The position numbers and the translations under genes were made by a program. This document shows, in pieces, positions 5,888 through 20,570 of a stretch of 23,279 nt of DNA. The notes under the pieces are model-generated. The model was not told where the DNA came from. It searched no databases and saw only the letters and a program-made list of their open reading frames with translations. Source of the stretch: a virus (Duplodnaviria; Heunggongvirae; Uroviricota; Caudoviricetes); IMG/VR virus record IMGVR_UViG_3300029816_000015, positions 1 through 23,279 of that record. One strand, written 5' to 3'. Position 1 is the stretch's first letter. Every line of letters starts with the position of its first letter.

Positions 5888-6366
5888 TTTTTAATACCCT
5901 TCTTAGTAGAAATTTTATAAGCAAGGTTATCCCTTAAGTCACCTGTCTCAACAAGAGGTGCATTAAAGCCTTTTTTCTTGACTGTGGAAGGTGCGTTAGG
6001 AGGGAGGATAGCAGAATTACCAAAACCTCTTTTAATCGCCTTTTGAGCATTCTTTGCAAATGCTTCTAAGGTATTTGAAGGGTCTGTGTTGAGACTGCTA
6101 AGTTGCTTATATAGATTCTTCTTAGTCTGCTCTAACAAGGTCTGTTTGTTTAGCATCATAGTGATTTCAAACAACCTACGATATACTTTACCAGAAGCTG
6201 AAGGAACCCCAATGACTTCTTGTAAATACATTAAAGCAGGATAAGAAAAACCAGAGCTATGTTGACCTTGTTCTTGAAAATACCCAACTTGAGCATTAGC
6301 CGTTTGCAAGTTCTTCATAGCCCCGACTAATTTTGCTCTAGCGGGGTGAATAACCCTTTTAACCAT
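5884..6366 (-). CDS. Hypothetical structural protein (head-tail connector candidate)
   Basis: 160 aa ORF, 4-nt overlap with downstream ORF; position in morphogenesis module. Confidence 0.4.
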   Translation of the reverse strand: MVKRVIHPARAKLVGAMKNLQTANAQVGYFQEQGQHSSGFSYPALMYLQEVIGVPSASGKVYRRLFEITMMLNKQTLLEQTKKNLYKQLSSLNTDPSNTLEAFAKNAQKAIKRGFGNSAILPPNAPSTVKKKGFNAPLVETGDLRDNLAYKISTKKGIKK

Positions 6367-8362: not shown

Positions 8363-9709
8363 TTATTTAATAAGAGATTTTAGAGCATTCTGGAGAGCCA
8401 GTTTGCGTTGTTCAGCGGTGTCTTCGGAAGCATTCTTAGCTGGTTCTTTTTCTTCTTCAACCAAATCAGCTTCGCCGTCATTACCCACTTCTTCCATAGC
8501 GTTGGAATGTTCAAGAACAGCACCAGCAGTTTCTTTCAGCTTGGTAATTTCTGATTCTTTTTCTTCCATTGCAGAAGCATGGGACGCGATAGTTTCATTA
8601 AGTTTCTGGTTAGCACCTTCCATAGCATTCATAAACAGAACACTCAGAGGGTTATCAAGACCAGCACCTAAAATAGTCGTTGCAGCTTCTTTTGCATCAA
8701 ATCCAAAAGCTTCAGCAGAAGCAGAAATCTTATTAGTCAAATCTGACAAAGCAGCTTCCTGTTCTTTAGCTTTCATTTGAGCAACCTGAAGACGCAAAGC
8801 TTCTAGTTCTTGCTTTTCTTGTTCAGTCATTTCTTCACCTGAATTGTTAACGTTTAAACTTACAGGAGCCTCTTCAGAACCTTGTAAGTAATTTAAGAAA
8901 TCATCTTGAGACATGATTGAGTTAATTAAACCAAGTTCAAGAGCTTCCTGAGCAGAATAAACATTCGCCTCAGTATTCTTTACAGCTTCTTCAGAGAGAT
9001 TACGAGATTCAGCTACAAAACCTGTAAAGGTTGCGTAGGTATCATTAATTCTCTTTTGAAGTCTTTCTTTGCTTTCTTCTGAAAGTGCTTGGAATGGTGA
9101 ACCCATACCTTTAAACTCACCAGCTTTGATGACGTTAATTGTTACGCCATTCTTTTCAAATGCCTTAGTTAATTCCTGATGAACCATGATTACACCGATA
9201 GAACCAACATCTGCATCTGGTGATGCAATAATTTCTTCAGCAGAAGATGCAAGAGCATATGCAGCGGAACAAGCGAACTCATCTACATAAGCAATAATTT
9301 TCTTTTGGCCTCTTGAAGCCATAATGTGACGTGCTAATTCAAAGCAACCTGAAGCTTCACCACCACCAGAATCAATATGCAGAACAATAGTCTTAATTGA
9401 CTCATCTGCTAGAGCTTCGTCAAAGCCTCTACGTAAACCCTCATAAGAGCTTAAACCACCAGTACACATTGCATCAATGAATGTCATACGATGAGTTAAA
9501 CCACCCATAATAGGGATAATAGCAATATCATCTTTTACTTTTAAAAGACTTCTTGCTTCACCTTTGGGTTTATCAAAGTTTACTGCTGCTTGGACATCAC
9601 CCAGCAATCTGTTATTCACATAAGTTGCTGCTGAGTGAGCTAATGATTCAGTGGCTAGTAAAGGTTGGTTGAATAATCTATCAGCAAGTCTGAAGATATT
9701 CGAACTCAT
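8363..9709 (-). CDS. Prohead protease (S49/SppA-like) fused to scaffold-like C-terminal region
   Basis: 448 aa; N-terminal half has S49-like motifs (LHIDSGGGEASG..., FACSAAYALASSAEEII with candidate catalytic Ser); C-terminal half is acidic, helical, Glu/Ala/Lys-rich like a scaffold; RBS GGGTGAG upstream. Confidence 0.75.
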   Translation of the reverse strand: MSSNIFRLADRLFNQPLLATESLAHSAATYVNNRLLGDVQAAVNFDKPKGEARSLLKVKDDIAIIPIMGGLTHRMTFIDAMCTGGLSSYEGLRRGFDEALADESIKTIVLHIDSGGGEASGCFELARHIMASRGQKKIIAYVDEFACSAAYALASSAEEIIASPDADVGSIGVIMVHQELTKAFEKNGVTINVIKAGEFKGMGSPFQALSEESKERLQKRINDTYATFTGFVAESRNLSEEAVKNTEANVYSAQEALELGLINSIMSQDDFLNYLQGSEEAPVSLNVNNSGEEMTEQEKQELEALRLQVAQMKAKEQEAALSDLTNKISASAEAFGFDAKEAATTILGAGLDNPLSVLFMNAMEGANQKLNETIASHASAMEEKESEITKLKETAGAVLEHSNAMEEVGNDGEADLVEEEKEPAKNASEDTAEQRKLALQNALKSLIK

Positions 9710-14044: not shown

Positions 14045-14084
14045 ATTATTATTATTTTAATTGAGAGAGAGTAAAATAACTTGG

Positions 14085-14157
14085 AGAATCCGAAGGGACT
14101 CGAACCCTTATAGACCTGTTTTGCAGACAGGCACATAGCCATTTCTGTCACGGATTC
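14085..14157 (-). tRNA. tRNA-Cys (anticodon GCA)
   Basis: Hand-folded: acceptor CGGATTC pairing, T arm AAGGG-TTCGAGT-CCCTT, anticodon loop CTGCAAA, encoded CCA at 14082-14084, U73. Confidence 0.7.
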
Positions 14158-14164
14158 AAATTGG

Positions 14165-14254
14165 AGGAAGATACCAGACTTGAACTGGTACACCGATTTC
14201 TCAGCTACTGGCAGTTTAGCAAACTGCTCCCTTACCTTTTAGGGTTAATCTTCC
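14165..14254 (-). tRNA. tRNA-Ser (anticodon GCT), long variable arm
   Basis: 90 nt; acceptor GGAAGAT/ATCTTCC, T arm ACCAG-TTCAAGT-CTGGT, anticodon stem GCAGT/ACTGC with loop TTGCTAA, long variable arm; CCA encoded. Confidence 0.7.
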
Positions 14255-14255
14255 A

Positions 14256-14990
14256 TTATTTCTGTAATGCGTTCTTCATTTCTGGTGTTGCAATAGTATC
14301 AATTACACCAGTTTTACAAGCATCATCAAACCAGTCTGGTAAGATACCTGCTAAGAACCCATTGATATTCGTTTTAAGGTACTCTGCAATAAGGGCAGCT
14401 TCTTCTTCAATCATCTGCACAACTTCATCTGCATAAGCTGTAATCTTCGAGATACCTTCATTAATCTTACTAACAGCTTGGTTAGCTAAATCAGAAACAG
14501 TATCAAGACCTTTATCAATAGCATCTTGTAAGTCACTTAATACATCATTAACACCGTCTAGTGCACTGTTAATTGTGTCAATAGCTTTTTGACCATACTC
14601 TGTAGCAACACCCATAATACCACTAAATGGTGTACAACCAACTTGCTCTCCTGCTGCACCCATAACATTGGAGTAGCCTTTTGCTACCTGCATACGTGAG
14701 GAAAACTCATCAATAGACTTTTGACCATAATCTGTCAATGTCTTAGTGGTTGATGTAGTGCTTGTCAGACTCGTTGTAAAGCTATTAAGCAGAGCTGTTG
14801 TAAGTCCAGCAGCAATGAGCTTATCCTTCATTGTAGGGTCTGTTACAGAGCTAATAGAGCTTACAAGTGATGTAGAGGCAGCCACGGTTCCACCTAGAAC
14901 TGCTGCACCAGTAATAAGGGGATTAGAAAACCCTCTACCGGTTTTTAAGAGATTAAAAATCTCCTTACCTTGTTCTGTCATCTCTTTCAT
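14256..14990 (-). CDS. Hypothetical protein embedded in the tRNA array
   Basis: 245 aa from ATG 14988-14990 with RBS AAGGTG 5 nt upstream; the ORF-track 5' extension to 15053 overlaps tRNA-Phe and is rejected. Ala/Thr/Ser-rich, helical C-terminal half. Confidence 0.55.
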   Translation of the reverse strand: MKEMTEQGKEIFNLLKTGRGFSNPLITGAAVLGGTVAASTSLVSSISSVTDPTMKDKLIAAGLTTALLNSFTTSLTSTTSTTKTLTDYGQKSIDEFSSRMQVAKGYSNVMGAAGEQVGCTPFSGIMGVATEYGQKAIDTINSALDGVNDVLSDLQDAIDKGLDTVSDLANQAVSKINEGISKITAYADEVVQMIEEEAALIAEYLKTNINGFLAGILPDWFDDACKTGVIDTIATPEMKNALQK

Positions 14991-15008
14991 TAAGCACCTT
15001 TGAAATTG

Positions 15009-15083
15009 GTAGTCCAGTGGGATTTGAACCCTCTTCTCATGTTTTTCAGACACGCGCTTTAACCATATAAGCTACTTGGACTA
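15009..15083 (-). tRNA. tRNA-Phe (anticodon GAA)
   Basis: Acceptor TAGTCCA/TGGACTA; T loop TTCAAAT; anticodon stem-loop CGTGT-CTGAAAA-ACATG; D stem weak. Confidence 0.55.
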
Positions 15084-15091
15084 TAAATTGG

Positions 15092-15164
15092 GGTGACCTA
15101 CGGGATTTGAACCCGTATAGACCATGTTCACAGCATGGGTCATTACCTTTTATGATAAGGCCAC
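15092..15164 (-). tRNA. tRNA-His (anticodon GTG)
   Basis: Acceptor GTGGCCT/AGGTCAC, D stem TCAT/ATGA, anticodon stem CCATG/CATGG with loop CTGTGAA, T arm ACGGG-TTCAAAT-CCCGT, CCA encoded. Confidence 0.7.
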
Positions 15165-15198
15165 ATTTAAGGACTCTCGTAAGAACCCTTAGAAGTGG

Positions 15199-15271
15199 CA
15201 GCGGCATAAGGATTTGAACCTTAATAAGACAGCTTCAGAGACTGTTGCATTGCCAGTTATGCTATACCGCT
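15199..15271 (-). tRNA. tRNA-Gln (anticodon CTG)
   Basis: Acceptor AGCGGTA/TGCCGCT, D stem GCAT/ATGC, anticodon loop CTCTGAA, T arm TAAGG-TTCAAAT-CCTTA, CCA encoded. Confidence 0.65.
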
Positions 15272-15279
15272 AAATTTGG

Positions 15280-15355
15280 TACTCCATATCGGATTCGAAC
15301 CGATACATAACACAGATTTTAAGTCTGGCCTCTCTGCCAATTGGAGTAATGGAGC
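15280..15355 (-). tRNA. tRNA with Leu anticodon TAA but short variable arm (76 nt)
   Basis: Acceptor GCTCCAT/ATGGAGT, U8, D stem CTC/GAG, anticodon stem CAGA/TCTG with loop CTTAAAA, 7-8 nt variable loop, T arm ATCGG-TTCGAAT-CCGAT, A73, CCA encoded. Confidence 0.5.
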
Positions 15356-15360
15356 ATTGG

Positions 15361-15433
15361 CGGGGGATGTTGGAATTGAACCAACTTCTTCGATTTCAAA
15401 GACCGAGGTTTTAACCTTGTAAACTAATCCCCT
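15361..15433 (-). tRNA. tRNA-Gln (anticodon TTG)
   Basis: Acceptor with A1-C72 mismatch, T arm GTTGG-TTCAATT-CCAAC, anticodon stem TCGGT/ATCGA with loop CTTTGAA, CCA encoded. Confidence 0.6.
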
Positions 15434-15441
15434 TTAAATCT

Positions 15442-15999
15442 TTACTTTCTTAGTGGATGAATAAAGAATGCCAACATAACTCTTTCCCTTGAGAATGCTC
15501 TTTCTTCTGGGACAACACTTTTAAGTTTCCACCCAACATAAATTCTCCAGTAGAATTGCTTACCAAAGACTTTAATTGACGGGATAAAAGCGAATAATCC
15601 CCAAGCATTACTGTTCCACATTAGGAGATAACCTGTCTGATTATCTTCAGGGTTAGAACTTACATTGATATTACCTTTCCACTTAGTAACATCTTTTACA
15701 TCTCTTCCTAACACATGGTAAGAGAAGTTATAAGCTTTGTTTCTCCAGAGCCAACCAACTCTCTGCATATAGACACCAAGCTTACCAATCTTTCTAATCT
15801 TAGCCCATCGTTCGACATGACCTTTATCACCATCAATTGGGTTGTCATATGTCTCCATCCATCTGAATCCAAAAGGGAGATGTCCTTTCTTCTCACTGTA
15901 GAATGGAACTACGAAAGGTGCTAAGATAACTGCTAAGATTGCTGCAAATGGCTCTAACAAAGCTAAGAAAATCCATGAAGCATACTTCAAATATCTCAT
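15442..15999 (-). CDS. Hypothetical membrane protein embedded in tRNA array
   Basis: 185 aa ORF with RBS AAGAGG upstream of ATG; N-terminal hydrophobic helix (WIFLALLEPFAAILAVILAPFVVPF), Trp/Lys-rich remainder; flanked tightly by tRNA genes. Confidence 0.55.
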   Translation of the reverse strand: MRYLKYASWIFLALLEPFAAILAVILAPFVVPFYSEKKGHLPFGFRWMETYDNPIDGDKGHVERWAKIRKIGKLGVYMQRVGWLWRNKAYNFSYHVLGRDVKDVTKWKGNINVSSNPEDNQTGYLLMWNSNAWGLFAFIPSIKVFGKQFYWRIYVGWKLKSVVPEERAFSRERVMLAFFIHPLRK

Positions 16000-16021
16000 C
16001 TAAATAGCCTCTTTAAATTGG

Positions 16022-16094
16022 CGCAGGATAAGGGATTCGAACCCCTATTAACAGCTTCGTAGACTGTTGCTCTATCCATTTGAACTAATCCTGC
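16022..16094 (-). tRNA. tRNA-Arg (anticodon ACG)
   Basis: Acceptor GCAGGAT/ATCCTGC, T arm AGGGG-TTCGAAT-CCCTT, anticodon stem ACAGT/GCTGT with loop CTACGAA, CCA encoded. Confidence 0.65.
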
Positions 16095-16102
16095 AAAACT
16101 GG

Positions 16103-16177
16103 TGTTCCAAGACGGATTCGAACCGTCACTAATACAAGGTTTGAGCTTGCATCCTCTGCCAATTGGGATACTGGAAC
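16103..16177 (-). tRNA. tRNA with Leu anticodon CAA but short variable arm (75 nt)
   Basis: Acceptor GTTCCAG/TTGGAAC, U8, D stem TCC/GGA, anticodon stem GCAAG/CTTGT with loop CTCAAAC, 6-nt variable loop, T arm GACGG-TTCGAAT-CCGTC, A73, CCA encoded; length fixed by adjacent tRNA-Val. Confidence 0.55.
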
Positions 16178-16181
16178 ATGG

Positions 16182-16254
16182 TACTCACTAAAGGACTTGA
16201 ACCTTTTTTCTTCATCTTGTAAGGGTGATGTTTTACCATATAAACTAAGCGAGT
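16182..16254 (-). tRNA. tRNA-Val (anticodon TAC)
   Basis: Acceptor ACTCGCT/AGTGAGT, T arm AAAGG-TTCAAGT-CCTTT, anticodon loop CTTACAA, CCA encoded. Confidence 0.65.
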
Positions 16255-16353
16255 ATGAAAGAGGTCTGAAGTTGTGCCGCTAACTCAACTCCGTGGAATT
16301 TGTTATGGTCTTCAGTTGACTCAAAGCGGTCTTTCACTTGACCTCTAAATTGG

Positions 16354-16425
16354 TGCTCCCACAAGGATTCGAACCCTGATAAGTTGCTTACAAGGCAACC
16401 GTAATAGCCAATTATACGATAGGAG
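16354..16425 (-). tRNA. tRNA-Thr (anticodon TGT)
   Basis: Acceptor GCTCCTA/TGGGAGC, T arm CAGGG-TTCGAAT-CCTTG, perfect anticodon stem GTTGC/GCAAC with loop CTTGTAA, CCA encoded. Confidence 0.65.
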
Positions 16426-16436
16426 CATTAATTTGG

Positions 16437-16508
16437 AGCATCCAGAGGGAATCGAACCCTCAACCTCAGTTTGGAAGACTGTAATTTTCCCGTTTAAACT
16501 ATGGATGC
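16437..16508 (-). tRNA. tRNA-Gly (anticodon TCC)
   Basis: Acceptor GCATCCA/TGGATGC perfect, T arm GAGGG-TTCGATT-CCCTC, anticodon loop CTTCCAA, CCA encoded. Confidence 0.7.
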
Positions 16509-16517
16509 ACTAATTGG

Positions 16518-16590
16518 TGGAGTCACTGAGAATTGAACTCAGTTCCCAAGTTTGCAAAACTCGAATTTTAACCATATAAACTATGACCCC
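16518..16590 (-). tRNA. tRNA-Ala (anticodon TGC)
   Basis: Acceptor GGGGTCA/TGACTCC with G3-U70, T arm CTGAG-TTCAATT-CTCAG, anticodon loop TTTGCAA, CCA encoded. Confidence 0.7.
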
Positions 16591-16599
16591 ATTGCTTGG

Positions 16600-16672
16600 T
16601 ACAGGTGGAGGGAATTGAACCCATCGTCTTACTGATTAAGAGTCAGCCGCATAACCATTTTGCTACACCTGC
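16600..16672 (-). tRNA. tRNA-Lys (anticodon CTT)
   Basis: Acceptor GCAGGTG/CACCTGT, D stem GCA/TGC, anticodon stem CTGA/TCAG with loop CTCTTAA, T loop TTCAATT with only 3 clean T-stem pairs, CCA encoded. Confidence 0.55.
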
Positions 16673-16682
16673 ATTAATTTGG

Positions 16683-16757
16683 TAGGAGACAAGGGATTCG
16701 AACCCTCAAACACCAACTTCTAAGGATGGTAGGTTTACCAATTACCGTCAATCTCCC
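16683..16757 (-). tRNA. tRNA with Leu anticodon TAG but short variable arm (75 nt)
   Basis: Acceptor GGGAGAT/GTCTCCT (two G-U pairs), anticodon stem CCATC/GTTGG with loop CTTAGAA, T arm GAGGG-TTCGAAT-CCCTT, A73, CCA encoded; two extra nt between acceptor and D stem. Confidence 0.45.
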
Positions 16758-17011
16758 ATTAAATCTTTTTAGAGAACTTCTAAGAACCTAAGCAACAAGG
16801 TTCCACAACAAGCTGTAATAACCTTAGAAGCCCTCTAAAAAGACCTAATTTGGTCTTTGCATAGTCTTGTTTAATCCGGTGACTAGAACCTTTGGAGAGC
16901 TTGATATATCTCTTCTCCGTGACACCTACTAGGTGCTTTATCAGTGTACGACAATACACGAGGGATAAACCGAAAATGCGAGCAAGCATGGACGGTGTAA
17001 ATCTTATTAGG

Positions 17012-17099
17012 CGGTAAGTAAAGGAGTCGAACCCTCACCGTATCTCTACAGTGGCAACAGTTTTCAAGACTGTTTGGCTGCCATTAGCCGCTACCTACC
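17012..17099 (-). tRNA. tRNA-Ser (anticodon TGA), long variable arm
   Basis: 88 nt; acceptor GGTAGGT/ACTTACC, 3-bp D stem, perfect anticodon stem ACAGT/ACTGT with loop CTTGAAA, long variable arm, T loop TTCGACT. Confidence 0.6.
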
Positions 17100-17115
17100 C
17101 CTAATAAGATTTTGG

Positions 17116-17195
17116 CATGGGACGGAGGAGTTGAACCCCTTTGAAACGGTTTTGGAGGCCGTTGCTCATGCCTTAGAGTCTTAACATCGTCCCAT
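17116..17195 (-). tRNA. tRNA-Trp (anticodon CCA), enlarged D region
   Basis: 80 nt; acceptor ATGGGAC/GTCCCAT perfect, anticodon stem ACGG/CCGT with loop CTCCAAA, T loop TTCAACT, CCA encoded; D region about 7 nt longer than standard. Confidence 0.5.
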
Positions 17196-17340
17196 ACTGT
17201 AATTCGAAGCTTACCGTATTTTCACAACACTGTAAAGCCCCTTCTCAGATTATTTACATGTTCTGGAAAACATGAGATACAGACCACCTCCTTACACGGA
17301 GACCCGATAAGGTCGTCTAAGCAATCTGCTAACTATTTGG

Positions 17341-17414
17341 CACACCCTACAGGATTCGAACCTGTAACTCAATGATTAGAAGTCATTTGCTCTGTCCAGT
17401 TGAACTAAGGGTGC
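17341..17414 (-). tRNA. tRNA-Arg (anticodon TCT)
   Basis: Acceptor GCACCCT/AGGGTGT, T arm ACAGG-TTCGAAT-CCTGT, perfect anticodon stem AATGA/TCATT with loop CTTCTAA, CCA encoded. Confidence 0.7.
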
Positions 17415-17617
17415 ATTAATCTTTAAAAACTCTCTTAGAAAGCCCTTAAAGATGCCCACCTTATTAATCATACCGTGGGCTAGTACGCCAAATTCTTTGA
17501 TGAGGGATTGGAAGACCTCACTGGTGTTTAGCCTATCAAGCTACTGCCAGAAAAACATTGTCGTTTGCATTTATTTTAAATTTGCAAAATAGACGCTACG
17601 CAACGAAAACTAAGGTT

Positions 17618-17646
17618 ACTATAAAGTGGTCACATCTAAATGTCAA
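17618..17646 (-). promoter_or_regulatory. Sigma70-like promoter inside the tRNA array (minus sense TTGACA-N17-TATAGT)
   Basis: -35 TTGACA at 17646..17641 and -10 TATAGT at 17623..17618 with a 17-bp spacer; predicted start near 17610, about 195 nt upstream of tRNA-Arg(TCT). Confidence 0.5.
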
Positions 17647-17664
17647 CAACTTTATTGAAATTGG

Positions 17665-17737
17665 TACTGGTAGGTGGAATCGAACCACCGATGTTCCCTT
17701 ATCAGGGGAGTGTTATAACCTTCTTAACTATACCAGC
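17665..17737 (-). tRNA. tRNA-Ile (anticodon GAT)
   Basis: Acceptor GCTGGTA/TACCAGT, T arm GGTGG-TTCGATT-CCACC, anticodon loop CTGATAA, CCA encoded. Confidence 0.7.
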
Positions 17738-17741
17738 TTGG

Positions 17742-17815
17742 AGGTTCAGATGGGATTCGAACCCACATTCATAGGGCTTATGAGACCCTTGCATTACCTT
17801 ATCTGCGACTGAACC
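17742..17815 (-). tRNA. tRNA with anticodon CAT (Met elongator or Ile2-type)
   Basis: Acceptor GGTTCAG/CTGAACC perfect, D stem GCA/TGC, anticodon stem AGGGT/GCCCT with loop CTCATAA, T arm GTGGG-TTCGAAT-CCCAT, CCA encoded. Confidence 0.65.
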
Positions 17816-17822
17816 ATATTGG

Positions 17823-17895
17823 TAGAAGTGGAGGGATTCGAACCCATCGCCTGTCAGATTAAAAGTCTGCCGCATCACCATTCTGCTACACTTCC
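17823..17895 (-). tRNA. tRNA-Lys (anticodon TTT)
   Basis: Acceptor GGAAGTG/CACTTCT, anticodon stem CAGA/TCTG with loop CTTTTAA, T loop TTCGAAT with GGG/CCC core as in the other Lys tRNA, CCA encoded. Confidence 0.55.
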
Positions 17896-17901
17896 ATTAA
17901 A

Positions 17902-18040
17902 TTATCTTTGTAGATAAGCTACCCAGACTTGCTTAAGGTCTGTAGCGATGTGCCTTGTTGGGTTTAAATCTAGAATTTACCCTTTCACCCTTTGTGGTCG
18001 CATACTCACAGGTAAGCTTAATAACTTATCTACAAAGATA
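17902..18040 (-). repeat. Long hairpin: 17-bp perfect inverted repeat (TTATCTTTGTAGATAAG / CTTATCTACAAAGATAA) enclosing about 105 nt
   Basis: Arms at 17902-17918 and 18024-18040 are exact reverse complements; interior holds smaller hairpins including CCAGAC-N8-GGTCTG (17922-17943); no tRNA fold found. Confidence 0.5.
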
Positions 18041-18044
18041 ATTA

Positions 18045-18176
18045 CCAGACCGTTGTTTATCATCTTAAGTGCTACCATTACACCAACTCGACATCTGCCG
18101 AGTGAAGGAATCGAACCTTCGCCTTTTCTTTACCGGAGAAATAGATTGTTTAAGTTTTGCTGTAAACGGTCTTCTG
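18045..18176 (-). ncRNA. Candidate Y-RNA-like ncRNA (YrlA-type) with permuted tRNA-like module
   Basis: Closing helix from minus-sense CAGAAGACCGUU (5') and AACGGUCUGG (3'); interior in minus sense has T arm GAAGG-UUCGAUU-CCUUC, then hairpin ACUCGGC-AGAU-GUCGAGU, then D-arm-like UGGUGUAAUGGUAGCAC. No anticodon arm. Confidence 0.4.
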
Positions 18177-18188
18177 TAAATTTGTTGA

Positions 18189-18265
18189 GCCAGACCAAGT
18201 TTTAAATTTTCAAAATTAAATTGGCTTTAAATTTTAAGTAACTTGCTGAATTTGGTCTTCTGCTC
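18189..18265 (-). ncRNA. Bulged-helix hairpin element, same closing helix as 18045..18176, AT-rich interior
   Basis: Arms GCCAGACCAAG (18189-18199) and TTGGTCTTCTGC (18252-18263) pair as AGACC/GGUCU plus a 3-nt bulge plus GG/CC; loop about 50 nt without tRNA-like arms. Confidence 0.3.
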
Positions 18266-18277
18266 CTTTAAAGAATA

Positions 18278-18314
18278 CTCGTAAGAACCCTTTAAGGGAG
18301 GGGCTAAATAGCCC
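18278..18314 (-). promoter_or_regulatory. Conserved spacer motif (minus sense CTTAAAGGGTTCTTACGAG) next to small hairpin GGGCTA-AA-TAGCCC
   Basis: Near-identical to the motif at 15174-15195 (minus sense CTTCTAAGGGTTCTTACGAGAG); weaker copies at 16770-16790 and 17428-17450. Function unknown. Confidence 0.3.
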
Positions 18315-18326
18315 TCTCAAAATTGG

Positions 18327-18400
18327 CGGTTACGATGAGACTTGAACTCACATCATCTCCCGTGACAGGGGAGTATTTTATCCAGTTAAACTACATAACC
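18327..18400 (-). tRNA. tRNA-Asp (anticodon GTC)
   Basis: Acceptor GGTTATG/CGTAACC, T arm GTGAG-TTCAAGT-CTCAT, perfect anticodon stem CTCCC/GGGAG with loop CTGTCAC, CCA encoded. Confidence 0.65.
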
Positions 18401-18409
18401 TTTATTTGG

Positions 18410-18494
18410 TGTGCCGTGTAGGAGTCGAACCTACCGAGTCTCAATGACAAGGGATTTACAGTCCCCACCGCTACCATCTACGGGATAACGACAC
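18410..18494 (-). tRNA. tRNA-Tyr (anticodon GTA), long variable arm
   Basis: 85 nt; acceptor GTGTCGT/ACGGCAC, D stem CCG/CGG, anticodon stem GGGGA/TCCCT with loop CTGTAAA, long variable arm, T arm GTAGG-TTCGACT-CCTAC, CCA encoded. Confidence 0.65.
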
Positions 18495-18506
18495 ATTTAA
18501 ATTTGG

Positions 18507-18580
18507 CGGTTAGTCAGGGATTCGAACCCTGTGCCATTCGCTTAACAGGCGACCGCACATACCTTATGTGCTTCCTAACC
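18507..18580 (-). tRNA. tRNA-Asn (anticodon GTT)
   Basis: D stem GCAC/GTGC perfect, anticodon stem GTCGC/GCGAA with loop CTGTTAA, T arm CAGGG-TTCGAAT-CCCTG, CCA encoded. Confidence 0.65.
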
Positions 18581-18590
18581 TTAATATATT

Positions 18591-18655
18591 GCCAGACCGT
18601 GTTTTTTTTTCTTTTATCCGCAAAAAGTAGTTTATTGCTGCATACGGTCTTCTGC
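18591..18655 (-). ncRNA. Bulged-helix hairpin element (third copy)
   Basis: Arms GCCAGACCGT (18591-18600) and ACGGTCTTCTGC (18644-18655); 7-bp helix plus 3-nt bulge plus G-C pairs; 43-nt loop with a poly-T run on plus. Confidence 0.3.
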
Positions 18656-18663
18656 AAAATTGG

Positions 18664-18737
18664 AGGCGGGTGCAGGAGTCGAACCTGCCGATGCCATGCT
18701 AATGAGACATGTGAGACGCCCTTTCTCTATACCCGCA
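18664..18737 (-). tRNA. tRNA with anticodon CAT (second copy; Met, fMet or Ile2-type)
   Basis: Acceptor TGCGGGT/ACCCGCC with 1:72 mismatch, T arm GCAGG-TTCGACT-CCTGC, anticodon stem CATGT/GCATG with loop CTCATTA (U at position 37), CCA encoded. Confidence 0.5.
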
Positions 18738-18748
18738 ATTCTTAATGA

Positions 18749-18821
18749 CCAGACCAAATCTCTTCTTTGTCCGATTTAGCTTCAGATGAATAAGATTAAG
18801 TTTGCTGTAATTGGTCTTCTG
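18749..18821 (-). ncRNA. Bulged-helix hairpin element (fourth copy)
   Basis: Arms CCAGACCAAA (18749-18758) and TTGGTCTTCTG (18811-18821) enclosing an AT-rich 50-nt loop. Confidence 0.3.
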
Positions 18822-18831
18822 TCAAAACTGG

Positions 18832-18906
18832 CGTTCCAGAAGGGATTTTAACCCTCAAATATCCACTTTGAAAGAGTGGTGACTATACCATTTTGTCTAC
18901 TGGAAC
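18832..18906 (-). tRNA. tRNA-Glu (anticodon TTC)
   Basis: Acceptor GTTCCAG/CTGGAAC perfect, D stem GAC/GTC, perfect anticodon stem CCACT/AGTGG with loop CTTTCAA, unusual T loop TTAAAAT, CCA encoded. Confidence 0.6.
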
Positions 18907-18916
18907 ATTAATTTGG

Positions 18917-18990
18917 TCTCTGTTGGAGGACTTGAACCTCCGGCCTTACCGCCCCAAACGGAACACTCTACCAAGCTGAGCTAAACAGAG
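18917..18990 (-). tRNA. tRNA-Pro (anticodon TGG); first gene of the array in transcription order
   Basis: Acceptor CTCTGTT/AACAGAG perfect, T arm GGAGG-TTCAAGT-CCTCC, anticodon loop TTTGGGG, CCA encoded. Confidence 0.65.
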
Positions 18991-19016: not shown

Positions 19017-19046
19017 ACTTTAACATTATTTTTTAGTGATTGTCAA
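19017..19046 (-). promoter_or_regulatory. Sigma70-like promoter for the tRNA array (minus sense TTGACA-N18-TAAAGT)
   Basis: -35 TTGACA at 19046..19041, -10 TAAAGT at 19022..19017; predicted start about 10-20 nt upstream of tRNA-Pro. Confidence 0.45.
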
Positions 19047-19108
19047 GAACTTTTTTAAAATATTTTTCAGTATCTTAGAAAAGCTCTCATTTCGTTTCTA
19101 TGTAGAAC

Positions 19109-19137
19109 ATATTAAAGGGTATCAAACACATTGTCAA
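19109..19137 (-). promoter_or_regulatory. Second sigma70-like promoter (minus sense TTGACA-N17-TAATAT) overlapping a hairpin
   Basis: -35 TTGACA at 19137..19132, -10 TAATAT at 19114..19109, 17-bp spacer; the -35 lies in the loop of hairpin GGGTAT...ATACCC (19117-19142). Confidence 0.45.
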
Positions 19138-19155: not shown

Positions 19156-19521
19156 TTACCAGATATAACGGTCAACCATTACTGCTTTGAGCATTACGCT
19201 GATTGGGTCAAACTTCTCACCACCAAGCAGAGCTTTTAAAGTGGCTGGAGAGAACCCTGATACCATCGCTACACCATTATCCTTAACAGATACTTCGCAA
19301 GTACCATTACGGTTTGCTAAGTACCAGAATACTAGTTGTGGCATTTCGTATCCAGCTTTTTTGTACTTACTCTGAATTGCTTCAAAGTTTGTACGACCAT
19401 TTGCACCATCAACCTGATTAAACTCCATATCAGAGAAGATAATAAGCTTACTTGGCATATCTTTCTGAGTCAAGTTGTTTCTCTTACCTATCTCAAGAAT
19501 ACGGTCAAAGCTGCTTGTAAG
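19156..19521 (-). CDS. C-terminal part of Ro60/Rsr-like (or DUF2828-like) vWA-domain protein, out of frame with N-terminal part
   Basis: Frame open from just after a TAA at 19522-19524; encodes LTSSFDRILEIGKRNNLTQKDMPSKLIIFSDMEFN... (second half of a vWA fold). ORF track entry 19156..19473 begins at an internal TTG. Confidence 0.55.
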   Translation of the reverse strand, partial: LTSSFDRILEIGKRNNLTQKDMPSKLIIFSDMEFNQVDGANGRTNFEAIQSKYKKAGYEMPQLVFWYLANRNGTCEVSVKDNGVAMVSGFSPATLKALLGGEKFDPISVMLKAVMVDRYIW

Positions 19522-20570
19522 TTAGTTGAACCATATTCAACATGACGCATTACCTGACGATGACGGTTTCGTAAATCACCACTCAGTTCAATGAAATGAG
19601 GGTTTGTTGAATAGACCATTAACTCATCTTTAAAGCAACCTGTATTGCGTTCTGCTACATACAAGGCAAGTGATACACCAATATCAAGGGCAGTGATTGA
19701 ACCAAGATTCACCCAAGACATTGAGCTTGAAACATCAGTCATACACAAGATGTTCTCACCTTCTGCCATCCAGTTTGGTAGTGCTTTCCACTGCTCATTA
19801 GCAACATCTGCATTACCATGCTTGATAGACTTAATCACATCGTATGGGTAGACAGCACCAGCATTAATCTTAGCCTCACCTTTTGATAAGGACTCAATGT
19901 AAGCTTTGTAGCGTTCTCCATCTTTGCGGTTAAAGAGCTTTTGGTAACGTGCAGCAGCAAGAGACGGAATCTTACTGTAATCAATCTTACCAAACTCATT
20001 AGCAGAGATTTTTTGCTCAACCGTATCAGACAGTGCAGATAACAGTGTGCGGTATTCTTTCTCGCTTAAGTTTGCAAACTTACAGAAACGTTTTACAAAC
20101 TGTTTGTGTCGTGGTTTTACTCGTGGTAACCACTTGGCTGCTAAACCTGCTGTCTCAGGGTCTAGTAATGCTGCTTCTAAATGCTTAAAGGCATCTGTCT
20201 CAAAACGAGTACCTACGAAGATTTTGAAGTCATCAAAACGACCAAGTTCTGCAATCTTATCCATAATACGAAGAAACTGTGTAGGCTCTAAAACTTTATC
20301 TTCGATTGCTTGAAGTAAAACAGTTCTGAAGGCTTTACGCTCACCCATACCTTCTCGTACATCTCGCATGTGAAGCAAAATACGAACTGCAACATCAACA
20401 TCCTCACGCAAAGCTTTGTAGAACAAGTCTGGTAAGATTTCTACATTGCTACGGCTTGAACCAGCAGCTTTGTAAAAGTCCACAAGAGCAGACATTGATG
20501 AAGTATGGTTTACAGCACCATTTTCAGTTCGACCTGCATGAAGGTGCGCATGTTTAAATAATTCGCTCAT
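19488..20570 (-). CDS. N-terminal part of Ro60/Rsr-like (or DUF2828-like) protein: helical domain plus start of vWA domain
   Basis: 360 aa; RBS AAGAGAG upstream of ATG; helical N-terminal about 280 aa, then DxSxS motif (CMTDVSSSMSW) typical of a vWA MIDAS; ends at TAG 19488-19490 inside the vWA domain. Confidence 0.6.
   Translation of the reverse strand: MSELFKHAHLHAGRTENGAVNHTSSMSALVDFYKAAGSSRSNVEILPDLFYKALREDVDVAVRILLHMRDVREGMGERKAFRTVLLQAIEDKVLEPTQFLRIMDKIAELGRFDDFKIFVGTRFETDAFKHLEAALLDPETAGLAAKWLPRVKPRHKQFVKRFCKFANLSEKEYRTLLSALSDTVEQKISANEFGKIDYSKIPSLAAARYQKLFNRKDGERYKAYIESLSKGEAKINAGAVYPYDVIKSIKHGNADVANEQWKALPNWMAEGENILCMTDVSSSMSWVNLGSITALDIGVSLALYVAERNTGCFKDELMVYSTNPHFIELSGDLRNRHRQVMRHVEYGSTNLQAALTVFLR

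What the first reader, a model, noticed from the sequence alone, without database searches (positions are those of the whole stretch)
18045..18176. Permuted tRNA-like module: T arm, acceptor-like hairpin, then D arm, closed by a long-range helix
In minus sense the order is closing-helix 5' strand, canonical T arm (GAAGG-UUCGAUU-CCUUC), a 7-bp hairpin whose strands look like an acceptor stem (ACUCGGC / GUCGAGU, 4-nt loop), a D-arm-like segment (UGGUGUAAUGGUAGCAC), then the closing-helix 3' strand. This is a tRNA circularly permuted at the anticodon stem with the acceptor end closed by a loop. It cannot be an ordinary tRNA gene, since no anticodon arm or matching halves lie within reach. It is the topology expected for a tRNA-mimicking Y RNA.
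Basis: seen in the sequence. Interest (0 to 1): 0.75.

Follow-up and report, generated by a model that had tools for sequence, protein, structure and literature searches.

The report
Phage tRNA-mimic Y RNA beside Ro60-like gene
The odd "scrambled tRNA" in this Felix O1-type phage is a real, conserved small RNA of the Y-RNA type (a tRNA look-alike on a long stem), encoded just downstream of the phage's Ro60-like protein gene; it is the likely RNA partner that earlier work on this phage group only guessed at.

Summary
On the minus strand at 18177-18043 lie a closing helix, a T arm, a 7-bp closed "acceptor" hairpin and a D arm. Stability alone is not significant (z = -1.85), but comparison with relatives is decisive. 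A covariance model built only from Felix O1-like phages finds full-length relatives in unrelated phages. On that alignment 93% of cells pair (58% in shuffles) and 31 of 32 pairs show compensatory changes.

About 1 kb upstream on the same strand is a DUF2828/DUF7788 gene. Its predicted structure matches only Ro60/TROVE proteins. Its Felixounavirus (Bas63) counterpart, gp130, is reported as Ro60-like and as a counter to the Ppl defence system.

The module is one of four hairpin RNAs in the tRNA array that share a scaffold (7-bp stem plus UUACAGCAA). That scaffold is tightly linked to Ro-like genes across phages.

It fails strict YrlA membership: no GNCGAA motif and no Rfam hit. I therefore call it a YrlA-like variant. 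Ro-like protein binding and function are inferred, not shown. An unexpected lead: the scaffold closely resembles Dictyostelium Class I RNAs.

The parts
18043..18177 (-). Whole tRNA-like Y RNA unit ('Y4'), 135 nt
   Evidence: Covariance model R1 match at 150 bits; sequence
18165..18172 (-). Closing helix P1, 5' strand AGACCGUU
   Evidence: Pairs with 18047-18054. All 7 modelled pairs covary across phages, 99.4% paired
18047..18054 (-). Closing helix P1, 3' strand AACGGUCU, followed by GG
18157..18165 (-). Conserved UUACAGCAA motif directly after the P1 5' strand; inferred docking site for the Ro-like protein
   Evidence: Invariant in Ounavirinae. Present in mycobacteriophage, Yersinia phage and IMG/VR relatives
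18143..18146 (-). Inner helix P2, 5' strand AUCU (position of the anticodon stem)
   Evidence: Pairs with AGAU at 18062-18065. Moogle has AUUUA/UAAAU, a compensatory change. 75% paired across phages
18062..18065 (-). Inner helix P2, 3' strand AGAU
18125..18141 (-). V hairpin UUUCU-CCGGUAA-AGAAA (variable-arm position; looks like an anticodon arm)
   Evidence: Rfam tRNA partial alignment. The loop varies between phages: CCGGUAA, CUGGUAA, CUGAUAA, CUAUAAA
18121..18124 (-). AGGC linker (resembles a class I variable loop)
18104..18120 (-). T arm GAAGG-UUCGAUU-CCUUC
   Evidence: 99% paired and 4 of 5 pairs covary across phages
18086..18103 (-). Closed acceptor-like stem (AS) ACUCGGC-AGAU-GUCGAGU, 7 bp
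   Evidence: Three pairs covary within Ounavirinae; all 7 covary across phages
18069..18085 (-). UG linker (positions 8-9) plus D arm GUGU-AAUGGUA-GCAC
18188..18263 (-). Y3: paralogous scaffold hairpin (GCAGAAGACCAAAUUCAGCAA...AACUUGGUCUGG)
18590..18655 (-). Y2: scaffold hairpin in the Met-Asn spacer; interior UUUGCGGAUAAAAGAAAA
   Evidence: (34.5 bits). The interior block is shared with mycobacteriophage Wilder
18747..18822 (-). Y1: scaffold hairpin in the Glu-Met spacer
   Evidence: (33.5 bits)
19156..20570 (-). Ro60-like gene (DUF2828 + DUF7788/vWA). Here it is split into 360 + 105 aa by a 1-nt deletion near 19509
   Evidence: Pfam; intact 471-aa orthologs; AlphaFold2 model and Foldseek hits to Ro60; frameshift located
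19017..19137 (-). Two sigma-70-like promoters (TTGACA-17/18-TAATAT/TAAAGT) upstream of the first tRNA; likely drive the tRNA/Y-RNA array
   Evidence: These are consensus matches only; the count is not above shuffles

Best explanation
This is a phage-encoded Y RNA of the tRNA-mimic (YrlA-like) type. It is one of four small hairpin RNAs (Y1-Y4) embedded in the 26-tRNA array and probably co-transcribed with it, immediately downstream of the phage's Ro60-like gene. Each of the four has the same terminal module: a 7-8 bp stem that starts G-C, then UUACAGCAA on the 5' side and UG(G) after the 3' strand. I infer that this module docks the Ro60-like ring protein, as the terminal stem of other Y RNAs does. 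Only Y4 carries the second module, a nearly complete tRNA cloverleaf. In it the acceptor stem is closed by a loop and the chain is opened on the anticodon side, so it can present a tRNA elbow and acceptor/T minihelix. By analogy with YrlA and with the Ro60/Y RNA/PNPase complexes, this domain would recruit or occupy a tRNA-recognising factor (RNase P, CCA-adding enzyme, modification enzymes, a nuclease or a defence protein). That would bring the factor to the Ro-like protein, or gate that protein. Because the closed stem is 7 bp, RNase P may cut in its loop, as shown for M. smegmatis YrlA. The resulting particle would act in RNA metabolism or counter-defence; the Bas63 counterpart of the protein is reported to counter the Ppl system. 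Shown here: the structure, its conservation and covariation, the Ro60 fold of the neighbouring gene, and the genomic linkage across phages. Inferred: transcription and processing, protein binding, the tethering role, and the link to Ppl.
For: Structure and covariation. tRNA tertiary-contact nucleotides are present (U8, A14, G18 G19, A21, U54 U55 C56, A58, G53-C61), read from the sequence. A model built only from Ounavirinae finds full-length relatives in mycobacteriophage Wilder (53 bits, E = 6.5e-9) and IMG/VR phages (up to 66 bits), and all 65 hits with E <= 1 lie on the Ro-like gene's strand. Neighbouring gene: confident model (pLDDT 88, pTM 0.88) whose top nine PDB matches are all Ro60/TROVE over the full length (TM 0.55-0.64 except 0.41 for Rsr 2NVO; E from 4e-9). 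It has an invariant DxSxS MIDAS motif (D279, S281, S283). It is homologous at 30-34% identity to mycobacteriophage 'Ro-like RNA binding proteins'. Scaffold linkage: 112 strict scaffold hairpins on the gene's strand versus 19 on the other strand and about 10 per strand in shuffles; 59 of 84 loci have one; 66 of 112 lie within 0.5 kb of the gene. This includes a locus with no detectable tRNA (L011). Rfam YrlA aligns the T-AS-D core of family members at 25-39 bits. Literature: YrlA architecture and RNase P/CCA processing (PMC4201824); conserved core with variable arms (bioRxiv 10.1101/312249); Bas63 gp130 is Ro60-like, sits upstream of the tRNAs and counters Ppl (PMC11482910); a phage Ro60 binds phage Y-like RNAs and host PNPase (PMC12135203). 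RNA and protein co-occur in about 250 Ounavirinae genomes.
Against: There is no expression, end-mapping or binding data for this RNA. Rfam's YrlA model does not score it, even at E <= 10. The YrlA Ro60-binding motif GNCGAAN0-1G is absent from the stem; its one occurrence at 18123 lies in the variable linker/T stem and is not conserved. The Levitt pair is non-canonical here (A15/C48). In this particular genome the Ro-like gene is frameshifted, so the partner may be defective here or the sequence may carry an error. The cross-phage alignment was fitted to the model, which inflates pair counts somewhat. I inferred, but did not verify, that Bas63 gp130 is the ortholog of this gene.
Confidence: 0.75

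Rival explanations
1. The hairpins, including the tRNA-like one, are processing or punctuation signals for the long tRNA precursor (sites for RNase P, RNase Z, RNase E or RNase III). They would work without the Ro-like protein.
For: All four lie in spacers of the tRNA array. A 7-bp acceptor-like stem stacked on a T arm is a good RNase P substrate. N-CCA at the start of the closed-stem loop in four lineages suggests cleavage there.
Against: The same scaffold sits beside Ro-like genes where no tRNA array is detected (mycobacteriophage Wilder: 0 tRNAs found in 10 kb). It tracks the gene's strand and position across 59 of 84 loci. Most tRNA junctions in this array need no such element, having spacers of 1-9 nt. 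The two ideas are not mutually exclusive.
Confidence: 0.1
2. It is a free-standing tRNA decoy that soaks up a host tRNA-targeting defence enzyme (for example an anticodon nuclease) or another tRNA-binding factor. The Ro-like protein would play no part.
For: The tRNA core is almost complete, and the V hairpin looks like an anticodon arm (5 bp, 7-nt loop ending in AA) with a loop that varies rapidly between phages. Phage tRNA arrays are known to counter tRNA-directed defences (my own knowledge).
Against: This does not explain the shared scaffold with three non-tRNA-like paralogs, or the tight linkage to Ro-like genes. The V hairpin is weak or absent in several members (Moogle, L081:6996, L052:6524).
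Confidence: 0.08
3. It is a decaying remnant of two adjacent tRNA genes (the 3' two-thirds of one plus the 5' third of the next) with no present function.
For: The closed-stem junction in Moogle reads discriminator-CCA-4-nt spacer, exactly like real tRNA-tRNA junctions in this array. Chen et al. warn that tandem tRNAs mimic YrlA. One of my hits (L014:1695) is such a false positive.
Against: A remnant would not keep complementarity between the 3' acceptor strand of one gene and the 5' strand of the next through compensatory changes. It would not keep invariant T and D arms over three genera and in distant phages. It also carries the scaffold motif that tandem tRNAs lack. Descent from a tRNA junction is a plausible origin, not a description of its present state.
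Confidence: 0.03
4. It is a genuine permuted or intron-containing tRNA gene (for example tRNA-Thr GGU, as annotated in phage REP6) that is processed into a decoding tRNA.
For: REP6 annotates a 131-nt 'tRNA-Thr GGT' here. The V loop CUGGUAA in some relatives is a canonical anticodon loop. Some relatives encode N-CCA.
Against: ARAGORN finds nothing and Rfam's tRNA model scores below threshold. The 'anticodon' is not conserved: GGU, GAU, AUA, or none. The window has C at position 33. Bacteria have no known pathway for rejoining a tRNA opened between the D and anticodon arms.
Confidence: 0.02
5. The region encodes a small protein: the 85-aa ORF on the plus strand (17948-18205), annotated as 'hypothetical protein' in several relatives.
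For: The ORF exists in the window, and similar ORFs are annotated in some records.
Against: The ORF shrinks to 34-49 aa in Mooglevirus and Suspvirus. Indels of 2, 4, 6 and 9 nt occur between relatives. The substitutions are compensatory for RNA pairing.
Confidence: 0.01

Closest known systems
YrlA (Y RNA-like A; Rfam RF02553), the tRNA-mimicking Y RNA bound by bacterial Ro60/Rsr, also reported in mycobacteriophages (Chen et al. 2014; Wang et al. 2018)
   Same: Long 5'/3' stem carrying V, T, closed AS and D stem-loops in the same order. T and D arms are conserved while AS, V and the anticodon-side stem vary. It is encoded within a few kb of a Ro60-type gene on the same strand. The 7-bp AS resembles M. 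smegmatis YrlA, which RNase P cleaves. Relatives of this RNA get full-length but sub-threshold RF02553 hits over the T-AS-D core.
   Different: There is no GNCGAAN0-1G motif; the stem instead carries UUACAGCAA next to a G-C-initiated helix. RF02553 gives no hit on this sequence. The partner protein is the DUF2828/DUF7788 type, which shows no Pfam TROVE match. The RNA sits inside a phage tRNA array alongside three non-tRNA-like paralogs. The V hairpin looks like an anticodon arm followed by a class I variable loop.
Thermus phage phiLo phiRo60 with its Y-like RNAs Yrl1 and Yrl2 (NAR 2025; PDB 9KOP, 9L5Y)
   Same: A phage-encoded Ro60-fold protein (9KOP is a top fold match) with several Y-like RNAs encoded next to it. 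Each RNA has a terminal stem and an internal loop bearing a short conserved motif.
   Different: The phiLo RNAs were identified by a CGAA motif and are not described as tRNA-like. They lie upstream of the gene and are not in a tRNA array. Binding to the protein and to host PNPase was shown there; nothing has been shown here.
Bas63 (Felixounavirus) gp130, a Ro60-like counter-defence protein against Ppl (PhageMaP preprint 2024)
   Same: Same phage genus and same gene position, directly upstream of the tRNA genes. The authors proposed that Y RNAs hide among the annotated tRNAs.
   Different: They named no RNA. The candidates found here are not the annotated tRNAs but unannotated hairpins in the spacers, one of which is tRNA-like. 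I inferred orthology from position and genus and did not check it on the Bas63 sequence.
Dictyostelid Class I RNAs (Rfam RF01414)
   Same: A terminal ~6-bp stem that covaries, begins with G and ends with C. A conserved motif (CC)UUACAGCAA directly after the 5' strand. An A-rich/AAG start and a CUG(U) end. A variable interior. The simple phage hairpins are 45-65 nt. RF01414 gives full-length hits of 24-30 bits on several phage scaffolds.
   Different: These are eukaryotic nuclear genes with their own promoter element, reported as unique to Dictyostelia. The known partner is an RRM protein (Rnp1A). All phage hits fall below the gathering score (41.5), and the window's Y4 scores only 12.8 bits. 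No protein link has been tested. The resemblance may be convergent or coincidental.
Circularly permuted tRNA genes (Cyanidioschyzon merolae) and two-piece (permuted) tmRNA
   Same: The 3' acceptor/T portion lies upstream of the 5' acceptor/D portion, with a short intervening sequence.
   Different: Those are matured into functional tRNA or tmRNA with conserved anticodons or tag frames. Here the 'anticodon' loop is not conserved, ARAGORN finds no tmRNA, and there is no tag reading frame.

Membership tests
YrlA (Rfam RF02553 / Chen et al. 2014) | tRNA-like domain with (V)-T-AS-D stem-loops closed by a stem formed from the 5' and 3' ends | tested here: met
   Sequence; MFE fold; pair counts; RNAalifold
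YrlA (Rfam RF02553 / Chen et al. 2014) | Conserved tRNA tertiary-contact nucleotides in the T and D loops and the AS-D linker; T and D stems conserved while AS, AC and V vary | tested here: met
   UUCGAUU T loop, AAUGGUA D loop and U8 are present. T and D arms are invariant while AS, V and P2 vary
YrlA (Rfam RF02553 / Chen et al. 2014) | Levitt-type pair between position 15 and the last variable-loop base | tested here: inconclusive
   The window has A15 with C48. REP6 has U48 (canonical A-U). Felix O1, Moogle and ESh22 have A48
YrlA (Rfam RF02553 / Chen et al. 2014) | GNCGAAN0-1G motif near the 5' end (putative Ro60 contact) | tested here: not met
   The only match in the gap is GGCGAAGG at 18123, in the variable linker/T stem, and it is not conserved in Moogle, HP1, ESh22 or Felix O1. 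The stem carries UUACAGCAA instead
YrlA (Rfam RF02553 / Chen et al. 2014) | Encoded within 4 kb of a Ro60 ortholog on the same strand | tested here: met
   The Ro60-fold gene at 19156-20570 (minus strand) ends 979 nt upstream of the RNA
YrlA (Rfam RF02553 / Chen et al. 2014) | Reaches the curated covariance-model score (69 bits) | tested here: not met
   No RF02553 hit at E <= 10 on the module. Relatives reach 21-39 bits
YrlA (Rfam RF02553 / Chen et al. 2014) | Bound by Ro60/Rsr in vivo; modified by TruB and DusA | not testable with these tools
   Requires RIP or EMSA experiments and modification mapping
Ro60/TROVE protein (for the neighbouring gene) | HEAT-repeat ring followed by a vWA domain with a MIDAS motif | tested here: met
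   AlphaFold2 model with pLDDT 88. The top nine Foldseek PDB hits are all Ro60/TROVE over the full length. D279, S281 and S283 are invariant
Ro60/TROVE protein (for the neighbouring gene) | Sequence-level match to TROVE (Pfam) or to solved Ro60 chains | tested here: not met
   Pfam gives only DUF2828 and DUF7788. phmmer and hmmsearch against PDB sequences find nothing
Canonical tRNA gene | Contiguous cloverleaf with free acceptor ends, detected by tRNA finders | tested here: not met
   ARAGORN reports nothing here. Rfam tRNA scores 22-22.6 bits against a gathering score of 29, and the match is partial
Canonical or permuted decoding tRNA | Conserved anticodon and anticodon loop (U33) | tested here: not met
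   Loops are CCGGUAA, CUGGUAA, CUGAUAA, CUAUAAA and AUUUUCA across relatives
tmRNA (one-piece or permuted) | tRNA-like domain plus a tag reading frame | tested here: not met
   ARAGORN reports no tmRNA in the window. Rfam gives no tmRNA hit
Dictyostelid Class I RNA (RF01414) | Terminal 6-bp stem plus an 11-nt motif adjacent to its 5' strand, with AAG/CUGU termini | tested here: met
   The window has AGACCGU-UUACAGCAA...ACGGUCU-GG. Logo of 114 phage scaffolds: helix position 1 is G in 66%, its partner C in 64%, and +2 is G in 67%. Family definition from PMC7919456
Dictyostelid Class I RNA (RF01414) | Curated model score (41.5 bits), length 42-65 nt, DUSE promoter, dictyostelid genome | tested here: not met
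   The window's Y4 scores 12.8 bits and is 135 nt. The best phage hairpins score 28-30 bits. The promoter and taxon criteria do not apply

The most novel reading that the evidence does not exclude
The terminal module shared by these phage RNAs is a G-C-initiated ~6-7 bp stem, then UUACAGCAA, with an A-rich start and a CUG(U) end. This is the same RNA design as the Class I RNAs of dictyostelid social amoebae. Those RNAs are abundant, 600-million-year-old, reported as unique to Dictyostelia, and have no known biochemical mechanism. If the likeness reflects homology or a shared protein partner, Class I RNAs would be Y-like RNAs for a DUF2828-type Ro-like protein (DUF2828 also occurs in eukaryotes). 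Alternatively they were acquired from phages of the bacteria the amoebae eat. Either way, the phage RNAs, including this tRNA-like one, would define a cross-kingdom RNP class. A narrower novel reading is also open: members with a 7-bp closed stem and an N-CCA loop may be cut by RNase P into two-piece, CCA-ended and possibly chargeable tRNA-like particles.
Probability: 0.2. Interest if true: 0.85.

Novelty: new variant of a known kind. Interest (0 to 1): 0.6.

Why it matters
Felix O1-type phages are widely used in typing, biocontrol and therapy, and their Ro60-like protein (Bas63 gp130) has a measurable phenotype: it counters the Ppl defence system. What RNA that protein works with was only guessed at. 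This analysis names four concrete, unannotated candidates with exact coordinates, one of them a near-complete tRNA mimic, so binding, deletion and processing experiments can be designed directly.

It also shows that curated tools (Rfam YrlA, tRNA finders) miss a large phage family. That family can be recognised by a simple scaffold (stem plus UUACAGCAA) next to DUF2828-type Ro-like genes in many phage groups, including Listeria, Vibrio, Yersinia, Aeromonas and mycobacteriophages.

It further explains recurrent mis-annotations at this locus ('tRNA-Thr', 'tRNA-OTHER', small hypothetical ORFs). Finally, the scaffold's likeness to Dictyostelium Class I RNAs offers a testable lead on an RNA class whose mechanism is still unknown.

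Tried and rejected
- ARAGORN and Rfam at gathering thresholds report nothing at the locus.
- Rfam YrlA scored directly on the module gives no hit at E <= 10.
- Thermodynamic stability alone is not significant.
- Sequence-level searches of the neighbouring protein against PDB chains, with a single sequence and with a profile, found nothing. Only the fold comparison worked.
- A literature search for DUF2828 found nothing relevant to phages.
- The supplementary phage list of Chen et al. 2014 is not held, and the Sim et al. 2020 review is not held. I therefore could not check which phages were already listed as having YrlA.
- My first, loose scaffold scan had too much background and was replaced by stricter criteria.
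- A guessed Bas63 accession turned out to be another phage, and the Bas63 cryo-EM paper gives no accession. Orthology of gp130 is therefore inferred.
- A megablast search of E. coli genomes for prophage or host copies found no match.
- The AlphaFold DB fold search, meant to ask whether Dictyostelium has this protein, was unavailable.
- Literature searches for the Class I RNA pull-down proteins and for Dictyostelium Ro60 found nothing usable.
- Readings rejected: an ordinary or intron-containing tRNA-Thr, a tmRNA, a plus-strand ORF, and a dead tandem-tRNA remnant. Reasons are given under the rival explanations.
Full report
**Context.** The window comes from a Felix O1-like phage (Ounavirinae). 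It carries structural genes (terminase, portal, capsid, tape measure) and 26 tRNA genes on the minus strand at 14082-18990, covering every amino acid except Trp. All these tRNAs encode CCA and most are separated by 1-9 nt. The finding lies in a 428-nt gap between tRNA-Asp (18400-18324) and tRNA-Lys (17895-17820). That gap is conserved in 252 phage records.

**Observation.** Read in minus sense, the region contains:
- closing helix P1: AGACCGUU (18172-18165) / AACGGUCU (18054-18047)
- conserved motif UUACAGCAA (18165-18157)
- short helix P2: AUCU (18146-18143) / AGAU (18065-18062)
- V hairpin: UUUCU-CCGGUAA-AGAAA (18141-18125)
- linker AGGC
- T arm: GAAGG-UUCGAUU-CCUUC (18120-18104)
- 7-bp closed stem (AS): ACUCGGC-AGAU-GUCGAGU (18103-18086)
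- UG linker
- D arm: GUGU-AAUGGUA-GCAC (18083-18069)

ARAGORN and Rfam at curated thresholds call nothing here. The minimum-energy fold reproduces the multi-branch structure, but its stability is unremarkable (z = -1.85). The case therefore rests on comparison with relatives.

**Covariation within the subfamily.** Eight to ten homologs from Felixounavirus, Suspvirus and Mooglevirus were aligned.
- The T and D arms are invariant apart from one G-U change and D-loop position 20.
- The closed stem has three different sequences, all paired: ACUCGGC/GUCGAGU, ACCCUUC/GAAGGGU and ACACG(U)/(G)CGUGU. Three pairs change on both sides.
- The P2 helix becomes AUUUA/UAAAU in Moogle, which is compensatory.
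- The V loop is not conserved (CCGGUAA, CUGGUAA, CUGAUAA, CUAUAAA, AUUUUCA). This rules out a decoding anticodon and therefore the 'tRNA-Thr GGT' annotated over this region in phage REP6.
- The 85-aa plus-strand ORF is not conserved (34-49 aa in the other genera).

**The neighbouring gene.** Directly upstream of the tRNA array, on the same strand, lies a gene at 19156-20570 with Pfam DUF2828 + DUF7788. It is an intact 471-aa ORF in Felix O1 and other relatives, annotated as PHROG 850 'RNA-binding protein'. In this window it is split by loss of one T from a TTTT run near 19509. Sequence searches against PDB chains find nothing. An AlphaFold2 model of the 97%-identical P0001 is confident (pLDDT 88, pTM 0.88). 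Its nine best Foldseek matches in the PDB are all Ro60/TROVE proteins aligned over the full length: Xenopus Ro60 with Y RNA or misfolded RNA, human Ro60, Thermus phage phiRo60 (9KOP) and D. radiodurans Rsr (E from 4e-9; TM 0.55-0.64, except 0.41 for Rsr). The DxSxS MIDAS motif is invariant in the family. By tblastn the protein is homologous over its full length (30-34% identity, E down to about 1e-76) to the mycobacteriophage 'Ro-like RNA binding proteins'. It also has relatives in Listeria, Vibrio, Aeromonas, Campylobacter, Bacillus, Enterococcus and Staphylococcus phages, 710 records in all.

**A repeated scaffold.** The stem base of the module is not unique. The pattern (R)CAGAAGACC-N4-NNCAGCAA...N4-GGUCUGG occurs four times in the array, all on the minus strand:
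- Y1 at 18822-18747
- Y2 at 18655-18590
- Y3 at 18263-18188
- Y4, the finding itself

Each has a different interior and all four are conserved across the subfamily. Yersinia phage P778 (Ro-like protein 53% identical) has the same gene-then-tRNA-array layout. Its spacers hold hairpins with compensatory stems, for example CAGGACUGU-UUACAGCAA...ACAGUCCAG. Mycobacteriophage Wilder has three tandem RNAs of this design right after its Ro-like gene. The middle one carries T-AS-D, and the first shares the interior block UUUGCGGAUAA-N-AAGAAAA with the window's Y2.

I then scanned 84 loci encoding Ro-like proteins (75 of them IMG/VR contigs at 38-47% identity). The strict scan required a 7-bp helix, 2-3 nt, then [AU][AUC]CAGCAA. 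It finds 112 hairpins on the gene's strand, 19 on the other strand and about 10 per strand in shuffles. 59 loci have at least one, 66 hairpins lie within 0.5 kb of the gene, and only 3 lie inside it. The scaffold therefore follows the Ro-like gene rather than tRNA arrays: Wilder has no detectable tRNA in 10 kb.

**The tRNA-like module is a family.** A covariance model built only from the ten Ounavirinae sequences (R1) finds full-length matches near Ro-like genes in unrelated phages. Scores are L036 65.8 bits, L081 62.9, Wilder 53.4 (E = 6.5e-9), L030 51.4, L052 45.8 and L037 44.1, among others. All 65 hits with E <= 1 are on the gene's strand.

On the model-based alignment of the 23 best hits:

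| Measure | Observed | 3' partners shuffled | Partners slid |
|---|---|---|---|
| Cells paired | 93.2% | 57.9% | about 42% |
| Covariation score | 0.62 | 0.16 | at most 0.11 |

31 of 32 pairs change on both sides. That alignment is fitted to the model, which favours the structure. However, RNAalifold independently predicts P1, T, AS and D, with 22 of 23 pairs compensated. One hit (L014:1695) is a real tandem-tRNA junction without the CAGCAA motif, which is the false-positive class Chen et al. warned about.

**Relation to YrlA.** The published architecture (stem, V, T, AS, D) matches. So does the conservation pattern of invariant T and D arms with variable AS, AC and V. Rfam holds YrlA (RF02553, gathering score 69). 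It does not score the window's module at E <= 10. It does give full-length or core matches at the coordinates of my model's hits: L081 9497-9612 (38.9 bits), L081 6816-6928 (28.7), L081 7015-7110 (25.2), L025 334-443 (24.7), L035 4865-4927 (39.2) and Wilder 6054-6107 (21.4). In those alignments the T-AS-D core matches well, while the outer stems carrying the GNCGAA motif do not. The only GNCGAA match in the window's gap is a non-conserved one inside the variable linker/T stem. My reading is the same tRNA-mimic core on a different protein-binding scaffold, paired with a DUF2828-type rather than a TROVE-type Ro protein. Because two formal YrlA criteria fail, I file it as a YrlA-like variant and not as a member of RF02553.

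**Which helix is the 'anticodon stem'?** Going round the five-way junction, the order AS, D, P2, V, T maps onto a class II tRNA with P2 as the anticodon stem and V as the variable arm. This is how Chen and Wang interpret YrlA. Yet V itself looks like an anticodon arm followed by a class I variable loop: it has 5 bp, a 7-nt loop ending in AA, and is followed by RGGY. Together with AS junctions that read discriminator-CCA-spacer, this suggests descent from the 3' two-thirds of one tRNA gene fused to the 5' third of the next. This is inference.

**Possible cleavage.** The closed stem is 7 bp in most members, as in M. smegmatis YrlA, which RNase P cuts and which receives CCA. In four independent lineages the AS loop begins with N-CCA: Moogle/HP1 G-CCA-AACA, L081:6790 A-CCA-ACUAU, L052:6524 G-CCA-AUU and L081:9479 C-CCA-AU. 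That is 4 of 12 eligible loops, binomial P about 3-6e-5. The window's loop is AGAU, so any CCA would have to be added after cleavage. This is suggestive only.

**Function.** Published work supplies the framework.
- Y RNAs dock on Ro60 through their terminal stem and use the other end to tether or gate partners such as PNPase.
- A Thermus phage Ro60 binds two phage Y-like RNAs and host PNPase.
- In Bas63, a Felixounavirus, gp130 lies directly upstream of the tRNA genes, is structurally Ro60-like and counters the Ppl defence system. The authors guessed that some annotated tRNAs are Y RNAs.
- A Listeria phage study made a similar guess for abundant RNAs near its Rsr-like gene.

My results place the candidate RNAs in the spacers rather than among the annotated tRNAs, and identify Y4 as the tRNA mimic. 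Two promoter-like sites precede the array, so co-transcription with the tRNAs is likely but not shown. No homolog exists in 5,426 complete E. coli genomes.

**An unexpected resemblance.** Rfam's Dictyostelium Class I RNA model (RF01414, gathering score 41.5) repeatedly gives weak, full-length hits exactly on the phage scaffolds: L013 three times at 28-30 bits, L023 28.9, L081 24.3, Wilder 18.9 and the window 12.8. Class I RNAs are defined by a covarying 6-bp terminal stem, an 11-nt motif adjacent to its 5' strand, AAG and CUGU termini and a variable interior. They are reported as unique to Dictyostelia. The Rfam consensus shows the motif as CCUUACAGCAA. A logo of 114 distinct phage scaffolds shows features my scan did not impose: the helix starts with G (66%) after A-rich sequence, and ends with C (64%) followed by U and then G (67%). 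This remains an open lead.

**Verdict.** The element is a YrlA-like, tRNA-mimicking Y RNA. It is one of four scaffold RNAs genetically coupled to a Ro60-fold protein in Felix O1-type phages, and it belongs to a wide, largely unannotated phage RNA family. Binding, processing and biological role are inferred and need experiments.

Noticed in passing
window 18747-18822, 18590-18655, 18188-18263 (minus strand): Three more hairpin RNAs (Y1-Y3) share the finding's stem base, (R)CAGAAGACC-N6-CAGCAA...GGUCUGG, but have different, non-tRNA-like interiors. They lie in spacers of the tRNA array and are conserved across Ounavirinae.
   Followed up: yes
window ~19509 (gene 19156-20570, minus strand): The Ro60-like gene is split into 360 + 105 aa by loss of one T from a TTTT run. 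It is an intact 471-aa ORF in Felix O1 and in a cluster of about 1,500 sequences. This is either a homopolymer sequencing error or a recent inactivation.
   Followed up: partly
window 17896-18042 (minus strand): Immediately 3' of the module is another ~145-nt structured element closed by a 19-24 bp helix (AAUUAUCUUUGUAGAUAAG...CUUAUCUACAAAGAUAAUU). The helix shows compensatory changes in other genera (AAUCCUCUUUGCAGUGAC...GUUACUGCAAAGAUGAUU). It has no Rfam match and lacks the CAGCAA scaffold. Function unknown.
   Followed up: partly
window 18266-18296 and 15165-15195 (minus strand); also L012 ~8726-8760: A repeated hairpin with the core GGGUUCUUACGAG (CUUAAAGGGUUCUUACGAGUAUUCUUUAAAG) follows tRNA-Asp and also fills the 31-nt Gln-His spacer. 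A similar sequence follows tRNA-Asp in Yersinia phage P778. It may be a processing or termination signal.
   Followed up: no
window 18590-18655 versus L011 5948-5997: The interior of Y2 (UUUGCGGAUAAAAGAAAA) is nearly identical to that of the first Y-like RNA of mycobacteriophage Wilder (UUUGCGGAUAACAAGAAAA), despite hosts from different phyla. This points to a second conserved Y-RNA class.
   Followed up: partly
phage scaffolds generally, e.g. L013 1525-1577, 5140-5193, 5598-5660; L023 6410-6470; window 18046-18171: The scaffold (a G-C-initiated ~6-bp terminal stem, UUACAGCAA, an A-rich start and a CUG(U) end) matches the defining features of Dictyostelium Class I RNAs. It draws repeated sub-threshold hits from Rfam RF01414. 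Homology, convergence or chance has not been resolved.
   Followed up: partly
L002/L003 (Moogle, HP1) module; L081 6790-6921 and 9479-9610; L052 6524-6639: In four lineages the loop of the closed acceptor-like stem starts with N-CCA (4 of 12 eligible loops, P about 3-6e-5). This looks like a built-in CCA end that RNase P cleavage could expose.
   Followed up: partly
L021 3134-3231, L025 149-280, L027 1266-1372, L036 4734-4828: Another recurring interior module sits inside the same scaffold: ...GAACCUUUCUGGAGGGGAAAGCAAAAACUCGCCAA. This suggests a further conserved class of Ro-like-associated phage RNA.
   Followed up: no
L012 (Yersinia phage P778) ~9010-9145 and ~9236-9390: Two tRNA-like sequences have matching acceptor strands and a T arm but carry inserts of about 75-120 nt. 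They may be intron-containing tRNAs or other tRNA-like RNAs. ARAGORN does not call them.
   Followed up: no
L030 190-657; L037 1293-1616; L035 10696-10922: Other notable RNAs lie near Ro-like genes in uncultivated phages: a GOLLD-like RNA (117 bits, E = 3e-30, below the gathering score of 150), a permuted tmRNA (71.7 bits) and a group I intron (71.5 bits).
   Followed up: no
L001 365-495 (REP6); L003, L004, L009, L010: Public records annotate this locus inconsistently: a 131-nt 'tRNA-Thr GGT', 'tRNA-OTHER'/pseudo-tRNA nearby, or small hypothetical ORFs on either strand. The 'tRNA-Asn' annotated just after the Ro-like gene of mycobacteriophage Wilder (L011 6010-6080) is not confirmed by ARAGORN or Rfam and overlaps the Y-like RNA.
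   Followed up: partly
window 14082-18990: The 26-tRNA set covers 19 amino acids plus initiator/elongator Met. It has no tRNA-Trp.
   Followed up: no
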